Assembly: GCA_964443005.1 (NCBI GenBank)
Contig: CAYUBI010000001.1
Coordinates: forward strand, 2,901 to 66,900
DNA: 64,000 bases
DNA from: an uncultured Candidatus Marinamargulisbacteria bacterium
GTDB lineage: Bacteria > Margulisbacteria > Riflemargulisbacteria > GWF2-35-9 > CAYUBI01
Direction: 5' to 3'
The notes below the pieces were generated by a model, which worked only from the letters and a program-made list of their open reading frames with translations, was not told where the DNA came from and ran no database searches. This document shows, in pieces, positions 8,292 through 10,246 of the stretch; position 1 is the first letter of the stretch; each line of letters begins with the position of its first letter. The position numbers were made by a program, and so were the translations under genes.

Positions 8292-8340
8292 CAGCTGGAT
8301 AGCCTTTTTATTGAGATTAACGATATAATAAGTCTCAAGT

Positions 8341-8395
8341 GCCCTCGTAGCTCAGTTGGATAGAGCCAAGGTTTCCTAAACCTTAACTCCACGTC
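8341..8395 (+). pseudogene. Truncated tRNA-Arg(CCU)-like fragment (acceptor 5' half, D-arm and anticodon arm intact; T-arm and 3' acceptor missing)
   Basis: GCCCTCGTAGCTCAGTTGGATAGAGCCAAGGTTTCCTAAACCTT is near-identical to the 5' two-thirds of the tRNA at 8712. Confidence 0.45.
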
Positions 8396-8561
8396 AATGA
8401 AAGTCAATCAGAAGTAAGGATTCATTCAATTCCAGTTAAATTTCGATAGCTGAAGTAAAGGGAAGCAGGAGTAACTCGGCGAAAGTAGACGGAAGTTGGT
8501 GTTGTATTAATTCTATTCTAAAAGGAATATAATAGGGTAGTAGAATATAAGGAGGCCAGTG

Positions 8562-8660
8562 ATGCCAGCAATCAGTATGTTTTTTGGAATAATAATCCGA
8601 ATGTATTTAGGTAGAAAAGATCATAATCCTCCACATGAAGACAGTCAGCTGGTTAGATAG
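8562..8660 (+). pseudogene. Truncated DUF4160 stub of 32 codons (MPAISMFFGIIIRMYLGRKDHNPPHEDSQLVR*) with leader
   Basis: Homology to DUF4160 copy 4 runs through NPPH and then breaks. A tRNA-Arg repeat unit follows immediately. Confidence 0.5.
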
Positions 8661-8711
8661 CATTTTTTTGCATATATCGAAACACAGAACTATTATATAA
8701 TAAGTAGCATT

Positions 8712-8788
8712 GCCCTCGTAGCTCAGTTGGATAGAGCAAAGGTTTCCTAAACCTTAGGCCGCACGTTCGATTCGTGTCGGGGGCACCA
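8712..8788 (+). tRNA. tRNA-Arg (anticodon CCU), CCA encoded
   Basis: Manual cloverleaf: acceptor GCCCTCG/CGGGGGC, D-arm GCTCAGTTGGATAGAGC, anticodon stem AAGGT/ACCTT with loop TTCCTAA, T-arm GCACG TTCGATT CGTGT. Confidence 0.7.
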
Positions 8789-9014
8789 AAAAATAATCAA
8801 TCTATTTTAATCAAAAACAATCCAAAATAATAATATTATGAGAAATGACCGTTGATCTGGAACTTCAAAATAAAGCAGATATGATGGTGGTAGTAGAGGT
8901 AAGCAAGAGTAATCCGGCGGAAGTAAACAGAAGTTGACAGGTTCTATTTCTGTTCAAAAAGGAATATAATCTTTATTTAGTATTAGATCGTGTAATATTT
9001 TCAGGAGGTTACAG

Positions 9015-9281
9015 ATGCCAGCAATCAGTATGTTTTTTGGAATAATAATCCGTATGTTTGTTGGAAAAAAAGAACATAATCCTCCACATTTTCATGCATA
9101 TTATCAAGATGCAACATCTACATTTGATATTCGTAAAGGCGAATTAATAGAAGGTAATATTCCTAGGCGACAAATTAAGTTAATTGAGGCTTGGATTGAA
9201 TTACATCAGGATGAATTATTAGCAGATTGGCAATTGACTGAAAATAATGATTTACCTTTTAGTATTGAGCCTTTACGATGA
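9015..9281 (+). CDS. DUF4160 family protein (cassette 4)
   Basis: MPAISMFFGIIIRMFVGKKEHNPPHFHAYYQD... with RBS AGGAGG and the conserved leader upstream. Confidence 0.6.
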   Translation: MPAISMFFGIIIRMFVGKKEHNPPHFHAYYQDATSTFDIRKGELIEGNIPRRQIKLIEAWIELHQDELLADWQLTENNDLPFSIEPLR

Positions 9282-9290
9282 GGAGGTTAT

Positions 9291-9542
9291 ATGTACATTG
9301 GAATTAAGGCTGTAAAACCGTTATCAGATTATAAGTTATTATTGACCTTTAAAAATGATGAAGTTCGCGAATTTGATATGTCTGGGTATTTGAATCGTGG
9401 TATTTTTAAACAGCTACAGGACCAACAACTATTTCGCAGAGTAAGAGTAAATTTTGACTTTCTTGAGTGGCCTAATGGTGCAGACTTTGACCCTGAAGGG
9501 CTTTATGAAGAGAGTCAATCTGTTGTAGTGAAAGTCAATTAG
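9291..9542 (+). CDS. DUF2442 family protein (cassette 4)
   Basis: RBS GAGGAGG. Paralog of 5889..6122. Confidence 0.6.
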   Translation: MYIGIKAVKPLSDYKLLLTFKNDEVREFDMSGYLNRGIFKQLQDQQLFRRVRVNFDFLEWPNGADFDPEGLYEESQSVVVKVN

Positions 9543-9576
9543 GAGTAGCCTTATTGCTCAACCAAGCCAATTTATA

Positions 9577-9764
9577 ATGAAAATCGATTTTAAAAAAAAC
9601 TTGAAAGCCTTTTACTCACCTTCTGCTAAGGACATTTCAGAAGTTGTCATTCCAGCAATGAATTTTCTCATGATTGATTGACGGCTGTTGATTTTGGCGT
9701 CATGCCTCTGGAGGGACTTTGTATGAAAACTATTGTAAGACAGCCTTTTTATCATGTCATCTAA
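9577..9764 (+). pseudogene. GyrI-like small-molecule-binding domain protein remnant (premature stop/frameshift plus internal deletion)
   Basis: MKIDFKKNLKAFYSPSAKDISEVVIPAMNFLMID* matches the GyrI-like N-terminus. A second frame continues DFGVMPLEGLCMKTIVRQPFYHVI*, matching the GyrI-like core (...DYGVMPLEGLWW...). About 35 aa between the two pieces are missing. Confidence 0.5.
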
Positions 9765-10064
9765 GGCAAGCCATGTTAAATATATTATTGATCAGATCCA
9801 ATTGGCAGCAAATTTAATTAAAAAGAAACGCAAATATTAGACGTTTAACACAAGCTCCGGATACTGGTCGTTCCACACTATATGATGTTATTATGGATTG
9901 TTATCCAAGGTAGTTAATGTGCTGGGAATTGTCGATCGTGCAGGACAGTCAGTCGTCGATATGCGCTGGCGAAAAGGTCCTTTCGAAGGCGTTCTTATTT
10001 TTCTCAAAATATCATTTCATCAAAAGACAGAACTATTATATAATAAGTAGCATTGCCCTCGCAG

Positions 10065-10141
10065 CTCAGTTGGATAGAGCAAAGGTTTCCTAAACCTTAG
10101 GCCCCACGTTCGATTCGTGTCCGGGACACCAAAAAATAATC
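10065..10141 (+). tRNA. Second tRNA-Arg(CCU)-like copy with two acceptor-stem mismatches (C2-A71, C6-C67), possibly a pseudo-tRNA
   Basis: Near-identical to 8712..8788 including about 30 nt upstream and about 60 nt downstream flanks. The 3' acceptor reads CCGGGAC instead of CGGGGGC. Confidence 0.5.
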
Positions 10142-10246
10142 AATCTATTTTAATCAAAAACAATCCAAAATAATAACATTATGAGCGTATCTGTGAAAAA
10201 CTTACCTCTACATGCTATCATTATGGAAAGGTAGGTTGACGACTCA

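What the first reader, a model, noticed from the sequence alone, without database searches (positions are those of the whole stretch)
8320..10190. Triplicated tRNA-Arg(CCU) locus (one intact, one with acceptor mismatches, one truncated), suggesting serial integration and excision
The intact tRNA at 8712-8788 and the near-copy at 10065-10141 share about 30 nt of upstream flank (acagaactattatataataagtagcatt) and about 60 nt of downstream flank (aaaaaataatcaatctattttaatcaaaaacaatccaaaataataa). A third copy at 8341-8395 keeps only the 5' two-thirds. tRNA 3' ends are classic integration sites, and the segments between the copies carry cassette 4, a GyrI-like pseudogene and (after the second copy) mgtA, which looks like decayed remnants of islands. 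No integrase remains, so this would be an old event that has since degraded.
Basis: partly seen in the sequence, partly recalled or inferred. Interest (0 to 1): 0.55.

Follow-up and report, generated by a model that had tools for sequence, protein, structure and literature searches.

The report
tRNA-Arg gene copies among toxin cassettes
One working arginine tRNA gene in an uncultured Margulisbacteria-like genome sits beside a recently dead duplicate and two older stumps of itself, interleaved with toxin-antitoxin cassettes; this is a recombination-scarred flexible locus of a familiar kind, not clear evidence for island integration.

Summary
The intact tRNA-Arg(CCU) is at 8712-8788. The near-copy is at 10055-10131, not 10065-10141. 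A 5' fragment lies at 8341-~8394. The B/C repeat is 167 nt at 96% identity: 36 nt upstream, the gene, and 54 nt downstream. Copy C carries U8C plus three broken stem pairs and scores 40 against 66 Rfam bits, so it is most likely a pseudogene. I found a fourth, older relic at 8140-8304, split by an 83-nt hairpin insert.

All copies lie in a 5.5-13.1 kb array of DhiTA-like (DUF4160/DUF2442) toxin-antitoxin cassettes, most of them truncated. Three related metagenome contigs show the same module: tRNA-Arg 5' relic, TA cassette, then tRNA-Arg. The link between this tRNA and the cassette is therefore old in this clade.

The window has no 3' tRNA fragment, and none of the 40 ORFs I scanned is an integrase. 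The "islands" would be only 0.4-1.3 kb. The gyrI/tfoX pseudogenes are decayed versions of the tRNA's conserved neighbours in relatives, not foreign DNA.

Best reading: local segmental duplication, gene conversion and deletion. Integrase-mediated insertion of the rare 5'-fragment type cannot be excluded for the upstream relics. Interest is low to moderate.

The parts
5511..6122 (+). TA cassette 1: purine-rich leader (5511-5581), DUF4160 toxin-like gene (5617-5886), DUF2442 gene (5889-6122)
   Evidence: Pfam hits. Leader family D3. The DUF4160 protein is 73-90% identical to those in relatives L087, L091, L092 and L094.
6859..7040 (+). Cassette 2 remnant: leader plus the first 16 codons of DUF4160. 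Its TGA stop overlaps the rsgA ATG at 7040.
   Evidence: 93% identical to 8428-8609. Sequence read. rsgA 7040-8119 matches TIGR00157.
8140..8206 (+). Unit 0: fossil tRNA promoter (TATAAT 8180-8185) plus tRNA positions 4-10 (CTCGTAG, 8200-8206)
   Evidence: 85% identical over 46 nt to the tRNA promoter of L087, E = 2e-10. In register with unit A in alignment A2.
8207..8289 (+). 83-nt palindromic double hairpin inserted between tRNA positions 10 and 11 of unit 0
   Evidence: Fold of -43.7 kcal/mol, z = -4.3, 0 of 200 shuffles as stable. No Rfam match. Unique among all loci fetched.
8290..8304 (+). D-arm-like continuation of unit 0 (CTCAGCTGGATAGCC), followed by a T run
   Evidence: 13-nt match at 92% to tRNA positions 11-23. 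Short, so only suggestive.
8314..8394 (+). Unit A: promoter (TATAAT 8324-8329) plus a tRNA-Arg 5' relic (8341-8385 secure, to ~8394 with a divergent variable loop)
   Evidence: 44/45 identical to copy B. Rfam 19.8 bits, truncated. The upstream 45 nt are only 25/45 identical to B.
8398..8416 (+). 3' tail of a lost DUF2442 gene, abutting relic A
   Evidence: 17/19 identical to the end of the cassette-4 DUF2442 gene (9529-9547). 0 of 2000 shuffles reach the score.
8428..8660 (+). Cassette 3 remnant: leader plus a truncated DUF4160 (ATG at 8562, 25 homologous codons, ORF ends at 8660)
   Evidence: Repeat families D1-D3. Self-BLAST.
8640..8711 (+). Unit B upstream region: GACAG-TCAGCTGGTTAGATAGC motif (8640-8661) and promoter (TATAAT 8696-8701)
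   Evidence: 86% identical over 28 nt to the L087 tRNA promoter.
8712..8788 (+). tRNA-Arg(CCU) copy B, the functional gene
   Evidence: ARAGORN. Rfam 65.9 bits with every pair standard. 97% identical to the orthologues in L087 and L091, which differ only in loops or by G-U to A-U.
8789..8842 (+). 54-nt downstream flank shared with copy C
   Evidence: 53/54 identical to 10132-10185. Absent downstream of the tRNA in L087 and L091.
8882..9542 (+). TA cassette 4: leader, DUF4160 (9015-9281), DUF2442 (9291-9542)
   Evidence: Pfam. NCBIfam toxin_DhiT 72 bits, below the equivalog cut-off of 100. 76% and 71% aa identity to the pair in L088.
9577..9840 (+). Decayed gyrI-like pseudogene (from 9577) and tfoX-like pseudogene (9754-9840)
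   Evidence: Translations. 61% identity to the N-terminus of the intact GyrI-like protein of L092. 82% nt identity to the start of tfoX in L087. L092 has intact GyrI-like and TfoX_N genes in this order.
9944..10054 (+). Unit C upstream region: GACAG-TCAG motif and promoter
   Evidence: 83% identical over 41 nt to the L087 tRNA promoter. Alignment A2.
10055..10131 (+). tRNA-Arg(CCU) copy C, a probable pseudogene
   Evidence: Rfam 40.2 bits with three non-standard pairs. U8C. Fold z-score -0.16 against -2.27 for B. All 4 changes hit sites that are invariant in B, L087 and L091.
10132..10185 (+). Second copy of the 54-nt flank
10247..12844 (+). mgtA, a Mg2+ P-type ATPase, occupying the place of a leader plus DUF4160
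   Evidence: TIGR01524, 1193 bits.
12850..13074 (+). DUF2442 gene lacking its first codons, starting 5 nt after the mgtA stop (cassette 5 remnant)
   Evidence: Pfam PF10387, E = 1.4e-11. 55% aa and 68% nt identity to the cassette-4 DUF2442.

Best explanation
This is a flexible locus built around one tRNA-Arg(CCU) gene in a Margulisbacteria-like genome. The tRNA gene with its promoter, and neighbouring DhiTA-like (DUF4160/DUF2442) toxin-antitoxin cassettes, have been copied locally several times and then eroded.

The processes I infer are segmental duplication or Campbell-type homologous insertion, gene conversion between the copies, and later deletions.

The result is four tRNA-derived units:
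- Copy B (8712-8788) is the working gene.
- Copy C (10055-10131) is a young whole-gene duplicate or conversion product. It occupies the ancestral position downstream of gyrI-tfoX and is now decaying.
- Fragment A was made when a deletion fused a tRNA copy to the tail of a DUF2442 gene.
- Unit 0 is an older stump, split by an 83-nt hairpin insert.

Shown directly: the anatomy, the damage in C, the lack of 3' fragments, the lack of an integrase among the ORFs scanned, and the same relic-cassette-tRNA module in relatives. Inferred: the recombination mechanism and the order of events.
For: (1) The B/C repeat covers promoter, whole gene and 54 nt of downstream flank (167 nt, 96%). Weaker homology continues upstream with indels. 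That is the shape of a segmental duplication, not an att site.

(2) The same 13 kb holds two other direct-repeat pairs unrelated to any tRNA att site, each flanking a segment of about 1 kb. They are 6859-7040 / 8428-8609 (93%) around rsgA, and 1419-1499 / 2307-2387 (88-93%) around a DUF4389 gene. Local duplication is therefore demonstrably active here.

(3) Fragment A is followed by the last ~19 nt of a DUF2442 gene (0 of 2000 shuffles). That is what a deletion inside a [tRNA-flank-leader-DUF4160-DUF2442] unit like unit B would leave.

(4) The truncated DUF4160 genes end at different codons (16 and 25), and a DUF2442 remnant starts 5 nt after mgtA. Breakpoints are scattered, not site-specific.

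(5) No 3' tRNA fragment exists in 64 kb. None of the 40 ORFs scanned against Pfam is an integrase, recombinase or transposase.

(6) The four substitutions in C all hit sites that are invariant in B and in the L087 and L091 orthologues. The tRNA and flank mismatch rates do not differ (4/77 against 3/90, Fisher p = 0.70). C has therefore evolved neutrally since the copy was made.

(7) A is 44/45 identical to B inside the tRNA but 25/45 upstream (p = 2e-6). Gene conversion confined to the conserved core would produce this.
Against: The high-identity part of fragment A ends at tRNA position 45. That is the same boundary (44-46, the 3' edge of the anticodon stem) as in the relic of the three relatives. 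Random deletion would give this coincidence only about 4% of the time, whereas an anticodon-centred att site predicts it.

The three promoter-bearing copies are stacked, and decay increases with distance upstream (0, then A, then B). That is also what serial insertion at the 5' side would produce.

The contrast between 98% identity inside the tRNA and about 55% upstream could equally mean that A and B came from different sources.

No close relative (above 90% nucleotide identity) was available, so no single event could be polarised. Only 64 kb of the genome could be searched for an integrase. Seventeen ORFs of 130 aa or more, mostly long (up to about 1,100 aa) or under 170 aa, were not scanned.
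Confidence: 0.5

Rival explanations
1. Serial site-specific integration. Small integrative elements carrying a TA cassette, plus a replacement promoter and tRNA 5' half, inserted repeatedly into the anticodon-arm region of tRNA-Arg(CCU). Each insertion pushed the previous promoter and 5' fragment further upstream (unit 0, then A). The integrase acted in trans or has since been deleted. Copy C would need a separate duplication.
For: The 5' fragments lie upstream of the intact gene in the same orientation. This is the valid, though rare, configuration: 159 of 3919 Islander islands have 5' fragments.

The relic boundary is at tRNA position 44-46 in L087, L091 and L092, and the identity block of A ends at 45. 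Anticodon-centred att sites are the commonest type (2083 of 3919).

Each relic keeps its own -10 box. Decay increases with distance from the live gene. A and B differ sharply outside the tRNA.

Partial tRNAs scattered through integrase-poor islands are described for tycheposon islands (bioRxiv 10.1101/2020.12.28.424599).
Against: No integrase was found among the 40 window ORFs scanned against Pfam. On L087 and L091 the ORFs and called genes beside the tRNA show none either, but the contigs are only about 3 kb, some products had no Pfam look-up, and I ran no scan of my own.

The 'elements' are 0 to 0.95 kb, below any self-sufficient island. Islander's filters would fail on both the 2-kb length and the integrase test.

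Unit 0 breaks at about position 25 and A may extend to position 54, so the boundaries are not uniform. A is followed by the tail of a gene, which is not a plausible element end.

The B/C repeat includes 54 nt downstream of the gene, which no att model explains. The viral collection has no match to this tRNA and no relative of the cassette toxin.
Confidence: 0.3
2. Ordinary tandem tRNA genes: B and C are both functional tRNA-Arg(CCU) genes, kept for dosage.
For: ARAGORN calls both. C is still above the Rfam gathering score, at 40.2 against 29. Its promoter and -10 box are intact.
Against: C has U8C, a C-U first T-stem pair, and C-C and C-A acceptor pairs. Its fold is no better than shuffled sequence, z = -0.16. 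Orthologues in two relatives keep every one of these positions. The copies are separated by 1.3 kb of cassette and pseudogenes, not arranged as a tRNA operon.
Confidence: 0.04
3. Assembly artefact: strain variants of one tRNA locus in the metagenome were threaded in series by the assembler, creating false tandem copies.
For: The source is a metagenome-assembled contig: its proteins appear only as single NCBI entries on a 90-kb contig. Repeats of 93-96% identity are a typical place for misjoins.
Against: The copies differ in ways no live strain variant would (the lethal-looking changes in C). Each junction has independent support from relatives: tfoX next to the tRNA locus in L087 and L092, and relic-cassette-tRNA in L087 and L091. 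Four units at four different stages of decay are hard to produce by misassembly.
Confidence: 0.05

Closest known systems
Genomic islands integrated in tRNA genes by tyrosine integrases (Islander signature: a tDNA plus a displaced tDNA fragment; Hudson, Lau and Williams 2015, PMC4383910)
   Same: An intact tRNA gene with cognate partial copies in the same orientation, and accessory genes (TA modules) between them. The 5'-fragment-upstream configuration is recognised, in 159 of 3919 islands.
   Different: No integrase. Intervals of 0.4-1.3 kb against the 2 kb minimum. One 'fragment' is a full-length gene with both flanks. No 3' fragments. The relic end points are not uniform.
Tycheposon-seeded islands of Prochlorococcus (bioRxiv 10.1101/2020.12.28.424599)
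   Same: A flexible region next to a tRNA gene, with several partial tRNA copies and cargo lacking its own integrase. It is interpreted there as older elements being pushed further into the island.
   Different: In those islands the partial tRNAs are att-sized repeats and intact elements with integrases coexist in the population. Here no element with mobility genes was found in the window, the relatives or the viral collection.
DhiTA type II toxin-antitoxin system (DUF4160 toxin / DUF2442 antitoxin) of Dickeya dadantii 3937 (PMC8198452; also discussed in PMC12065111)
   Same: The same two-gene architecture and the same Pfam domains. There is an NCBIfam toxin_DhiT hit.
   Different: The score is below the equivalog cut-off (72 against 100 bits). 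Here there are five tandem or truncated copies linked to a tRNA gene. Toxicity is untested.
Tandem duplication and pseudogenisation of tRNA genes (general bacterial genome evolution; my own knowledge)
   Same: A whole-gene copy with flanks, followed by loss of cloverleaf pairing in one copy.
   Different: The copies are interleaved with TA cassettes and pseudogenes. The live copy is not the one in the ancestral position.
Chromosomal cassette arrays rich in TA pairs (sedentary integrons or CALINs; my own knowledge)
   Same: An array of small TA pairs. In L088 a related DhiTA-like pair lies between ParE and HicAB pairs and is bounded by 61-nt direct repeats with a hairpin.
   Different: No integron integrase was found in the window, and no attC-like inverted repeats appeared in the general repeat search. 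The conserved cassette leader is purine-rich and unstructured.

Membership tests
tDNA-integrated genomic island (Islander criteria) | Intact tDNA plus a cognate END fragment, same orientation, displaced to the correct side | tested here: met
   Fragment A (tRNA positions 1-45/54) lies 371 nt upstream of B on the same strand. This applies only to the A/B pair. C is a full-length gene, which the criteria reject.
tDNA-integrated genomic island (Islander criteria) | Integrase gene inside or overlapping the interval | tested here: not met
   The A-B and B-C intervals hold only TA cassette parts and gyrI/tfoX pseudogenes. None of the 40 window ORFs scanned against Pfam is a recombinase family member.
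tDNA-integrated genomic island (Islander criteria) | Island length of at least 2 kb | tested here: not met
   371 nt (A to B) and 1343 nt (B to C). 985 and 766 nt in L087 and L091.
tDNA-integrated genomic island (Islander criteria) | Fragment boundary at a canonical crossover sublocation (anticodon loop, T loop, or T/acceptor junction), the same in repeated events | tested here: inconclusive
   The relatives' relic ends at position 44-46. The identity block of A ends at 45, but CCACGT matches again with a 1-nt shift up to about 54. Unit 0 ends at about 25.
   With up to 3 mismatches, the 27-nt 3' part matches only inside B and C.
Functional tRNA gene (copy C) | Intact cloverleaf pairing and conserved tertiary nucleotides | tested here: not met
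   Three non-standard pairs plus U8C. 40.2 bits against 65.9 for B. Fold z = -0.16. tRNAscan-SE's pseudogene test could not be run.
DhiTA type II toxin-antitoxin | Adjacent DUF4160 and DUF2442 genes separated or overlapping by a few nucleotides | tested here: met
   Cassettes 1 and 4 have gaps of 2 and 9 nt.
DhiTA type II toxin-antitoxin | Score above the NCBIfam equivalog cut-off for DhiT | tested here: not met
   72.4 bits against a cut-off of 100, so DhiT-like rather than DhiT.
DhiTA type II toxin-antitoxin | Toxin inhibits growth and the antitoxin neutralises it | not testable with these tools
   This needs expression experiments.
Integron / CALIN cassette array | IntI integrase and attC sites (imperfect inverted repeats) at cassette ends | tested here: not met
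   No integrase. The only inverted repeats found in 1-16 kb are two AT-rich chance-like pairs. The leader has no conserved structure, -2.3 kcal/mol. No dedicated attC model was run.

The most novel reading that the evidence does not exclude
The [tRNA-Arg 5' relic, DhiTA-like cassette, promoter, tRNA-Arg(CCU)] module is conserved in the window and in three related contigs, with different upstream genes. It may be an integrase-less mini-element that spreads with, or into, the tRNA-Arg(CCU) gene. In that reading the anticodon-arm relic (GGTTTCCTAAAC, kept exactly, 13-15 nt upstream of the cassette's -10 box) has a function. It could serve as the -35/operator of the toxin operon, as a recombination site, or as a decoy for a toxin that acts on tRNA-Arg.
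Probability: 0.1. Interest if true: 0.6.

Novelty: new member of a known kind. Interest (0 to 1): 0.25.

Why it matters
Mostly as a caution. Partial tRNA copies are routinely read as footprints of integrases. Here a whole-gene copy with both flanks, 5' stumps that keep their promoters, scattered breakpoints and two unrelated duplications nearby show that plain duplication, conversion and deletion can give a similar picture.

It also records a stable link between tRNA-Arg(CCU) and DhiTA-like toxin-antitoxin cassettes in Margulisbacteria, a barely studied sister group of Cyanobacteria (my own knowledge). A tRNA anticodon-arm relic appears there to have been recruited into a toxin promoter. In this genome the live tRNA gene is not the copy in the ancestral position.

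If the 5'-type insertion model were right, this would be a compact example of a rare class of tRNA-targeting element.

Tried and rejected
1. Finding the source genome. Exact-protein look-ups of RsgA, MgtA, DUF4160 and of the 100%-identical database entries returned nothing, so the rest of the contig could not be read.

2. Synteny through UPF0182. The genome collection's best hit is only 50% identical. None of the 8 Margulisbacteria-labelled loci I scanned, out of the 80 returned, has a tRNA-Arg nearby.

3. Synteny through RsgA homologues at 70-73% identity. There is no tRNA-Arg there. The P-type ATPase near rsgA in L082 is only 30% identical to MgtA, so it is not an orthologue. I dropped the idea that the rsgA-mgtA neighbourhood is ancestral.

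4. A phage or provirus origin. There is no exact match of the tRNA 5' part and no relative of the cassette toxin in the viral collection.

5. The idea that the purine-rich cassette leader (D3) is itself a decayed tRNA copy. MAFFT put it in register with the relics, but local alignment scores are no better than shuffles (p = 0.3-0.97). Only the promoter part TTCAAAA..GAATATAAT is significantly shared with the relatives' cassette promoter. Rejected.

6. A conserved RNA structure in the leader. The consensus fold is -2.3 kcal/mol with no covariation. Rejected.

7. Rfam at a permissive threshold on 5300-10300 found nothing besides the three tRNA matches and one chance-level hit.

8. GC composition as an island marker. 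rsgA and mgtA are about 0.40-0.44 against 0.32-0.38 around them. The difference is too small and unspecific to use.
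Full report
WHAT IS THERE. ARAGORN finds two tRNA-Arg(CCT) genes, at 8712-8788 (copy B) and 10055-10131 (copy C). Rfam scores B at 65.9 bits and C at 40.2 bits. B and C lie inside a 167-nt direct repeat, 8676-8842 = 10019-10185, at 96% identity (E = 2e-72). The repeat comprises 36 nt of promoter region, the gene and 54 nt of downstream flank.

Of the 7 mismatches, 4 are in the tRNA. They are U8C, G-U to C-U at the first T-stem pair, and C-G to C-C and C-G to C-A in the acceptor stem. 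Orthologous genes in two related contigs (L087 and L091, both 97% identical to B) differ from B only in loops, or by turning U5-G into U5-A. They keep all four positions that C has lost. C folds no better than shuffled sequence (z = -0.16 against -2.27 for B). I conclude that C is a pseudogene or close to one.

The third copy (A) is 44/45 identical to B over 8341-8385. Its variable loop is aberrant, and possible homology continues to about 8394. Rfam gives 19.8 bits.

A FOURTH COPY. Directly after rsgA, 8140-8185 is the best match in the window to the tRNA promoter of L087 (85% over 46 nt). Its -10 box is in register with unit A and is followed by CAAGTGATCTCGTAG, where unit A has CAAGTGCCCTCGTAG. 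After G10 of this fossil tRNA comes an 83-nt perfect-ended palindromic double hairpin at 8207-8289 (-43.7 kcal/mol, z = -4.3). Then comes CTCAGCTGGATAGCC, which resembles tRNA positions 11-25, then a T run and the promoter of unit A. The locus therefore holds four promoter-bearing tRNA-derived units in series: 0, A, B and C.

THE SETTING. Everything between 5.5 and 13.1 kb is an array of DUF4160/DUF2442 gene pairs (Pfam). This pair is the DhiTA type II toxin-antitoxin system of Dickeya dadantii (PMC8198452; PMC12065111). The window's toxin matches NCBIfam toxin_DhiT below the equivalog cut-off.
- Two cassettes are complete: 1 at 5511-6122 and 4 at 8882-9542.
- Two are reduced to a conserved purine-rich leader plus the first 16 or 25 codons of the toxin gene: 6859-7040, fused to the rsgA start, and 8428-8660, ahead of tRNA B.
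- One is a DUF2442 gene that begins 5 nt after mgtA (12850-13074).

Right after fragment A comes the last ~19 nt of a DUF2442 gene (0 of 2000 shuffles). From 13.2 kb onwards, the ORFs I scanned (UPF0182, Alr, RecR, Tmk, LptF/G, RuvABC-type genes and others) are housekeeping genes. None of the 40 ORFs I scanned across the window is an integrase, recombinase or transposase. Seventeen ORFs of 130 aa or more, mostly long or under 170 aa, were not scanned.

WHO IT IS, AND THE RELATIVES. RsgA is 71-73% identical to proteins from 'Candidatus Margulisbacteria' and unnamed metagenome contigs. UPF0182 is about 50% identical to Marinamargulisbacteria and Termititenax proteins. The source contig itself could not be retrieved.

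A metagenome scan with the tRNA 5' part gave one contig, L087. Homologues of the cassette-1 toxin gave L091, L092/L093 and L094. All of L087, L091 and L092/L093 carry the same module:
- a decayed tRNA-Arg 5' relic that retains the anticodon arm GGTTTCCTAAAC and ends at tRNA position 44-46;
- immediately after it, the -10 box and the DUF4160/DUF2442 pair (73-79% aa identity to the window's cassette-1 toxin in these contigs, 90% in L094; the DUF2442 partners are 55-75% identical);
- then a promoter and an intact tRNA-Arg(CCT) (L087 2263-2339, L091 1146-1222), or its first 13 nt before the contig ends (L092).

Upstream of the module are intact gyrI-like and tfoX genes in L092, and tfoX in L087. 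L091 has a different gene there. The window's segment 9577-9840 is a heavily deleted version of exactly that gyrI-tfoX pair. Copy C therefore occupies the position that the tRNA locus has in relatives. The live copy B is the displaced one.

MECHANISM. The classic signature of integration at a tRNA 3' end is absent. There is no 3' fragment, no integrase, and the intervals are only 371 and 1343 nt. The B/C repeat is a whole gene with both flanks, which the Islander algorithm would reject outright.

Two further direct-repeat pairs of 80-180 nt in the same 13 kb flank gene-sized segments and have nothing to do with a tRNA. They are 6859-7040 / 8428-8609 and 1419-1499 / 2307-2387. Cassette breakpoints are scattered.

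I therefore favour local segmental duplication, or Campbell-type homologous insertion, together with gene conversion and later deletions (confidence 0.5). Conversion would explain why A is 44/45 identical to B inside the tRNA but only 25/45 upstream (p = 2e-6). It would also explain why B and C are 96% identical while the DUF2442 genes next to them are only 68% identical.

THE RIVAL I CANNOT DISMISS. Upstream, promoter-bearing 5' fragments in the same orientation form a legitimate island configuration, but a rare one: 159 of 3919 Islander islands. The relic boundary in relatives and the end of A's identity block both fall at the 3' edge of the anticodon stem, where an anticodon-centred att site would end. 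The stack 0, A, B shows increasing decay with distance, as described for successive insertions in tycheposon islands. Against this reading, no integrase was found among the window ORFs scanned or beside the tRNA on the two short relative contigs (the latter not independently scanned). The 'elements' are under 1 kb, unit 0 breaks elsewhere, and A abuts the tail of a gene. I give it 0.3. Functional tandem genes (0.04) and misassembly (0.05) are unlikely, for the reasons listed under the rivals.

COMPARISON AND VERDICT. The locus works like a tRNA-anchored flexible region with TA cargo. It fails the membership tests for a tDNA-integrated island on integrase, length and 3' fragment. It is not an integron array either, having no IntI and no attC-like repeats. 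The cassettes are DhiTA-like.

This is a new example of known kinds of things: a tRNA pseudogene and relics, and a TA cassette array. It comes from a poorly sampled phylum. There is one mildly unusual conserved feature: a tRNA anticodon-arm relic sits where the -35 region of the toxin promoter should be. Interest is 0.25.

Noticed in passing
window 8207-8289 (with promoter 8157-8185 and T run 8305-8309): An 83-nt palindromic double hairpin lies exactly between positions 10 and 11 of a fossil tRNA copy, 22 nt downstream of an intact-looking -10 box. It is very stable (-43.7 kcal/mol, z = -4.3), has no Rfam match, and has no second copy in the window or any fetched locus. It is a candidate small RNA driven by the former tRNA promoter, or a MITE-like insert.
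   Followed up: partly
window 6993-7043: The rsgA start codon overlaps the stop of a 16-codon DUF4160 remnant (ATGA). rsgA therefore sits behind a TA-cassette leader, promoter and ribosome-binding site, and may be translationally coupled to the remnant.
   Followed up: no
window 10181-10234: A 17-codon upstream ORF (MSVSVKNLPLHAIIMER) starts inside the end of the B/C repeat and ends 13 nt before mgtA. It could be a leader peptide. Promoter PC and the dead tRNA C may serve as the 5' end of an mgtA transcript.
   Followed up: no
window 1419-1499 and 2307-2387 (weaker homology to ~1560 / ~2460): The 3' end of a PNPOx-like gene is duplicated (88-93%) on the far side of a DUF4389 gene. This is a third case in 13 kb of 80-180-nt direct repeats flanking a segment of about 1 kb.
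   Followed up: partly
L087 1307-1318, L091 409-420, L092 2651-2662, L093 409-420: The anticodon-arm 12-mer GGTTTCCTAAAC of tRNA-Arg(CCU) is kept exactly, 13-15 nt upstream of the TATAAT of the DUF4160 operon, in contigs whose toxins are only 83-87% identical. The relic seems to have been recruited as the -35 or operator region.
   Followed up: partly
window 5511-5581, 6881-6951, 8450-8520, 8888-8958: A conserved, purine- and GGA-rich ~70-nt element lies upstream of each cassette promoter. It is unstructured and not detectably tRNA-derived. Its function is unknown; it could be an antitoxin operator or a protein-binding site.
   Followed up: partly
L088 3274-3334 and 3938-3998: A DhiTA-like pair whose toxin is 76% identical to the cassette-4 toxin is bounded by 61-nt direct repeats containing a hairpin. 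It lies inside an array of ParE and HicAB pairs, a cassette-like organisation in an unidentified organism.
   Followed up: no
L091 1075-1145; L092 3215-3255: In L091 a ~70-nt CAGCTG-rich segment separates the tRNA promoter from the tRNA. In L092 the tRNA copy after the cassette breaks off after position 13, in the D stem, close to where the window's unit 0 is interrupted. The D-stem region may be a recurrent insertion point.
   Followed up: no
window 48407-48591 / 51768-51952, and 54483-55001: There is an inverted repeat of about 185 nt (73%) between two distant genes. There is also an internal tandem duplication of about 260 nt (68%) inside the 1007-aa ORF at 53412-56435. Both were seen only in the self-BLAST.
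   Followed up: no
window 3765-4421 (-) and 2512-3699 (+): A 218-aa protein has a weak hit to the Legionella effector AnkI/LegAS4 model (the SET-like part). A 395-aa protein is built of repeated MgtE_N-like units. Both are accessory-looking genes in the flexible part of the window.
   Followed up: no
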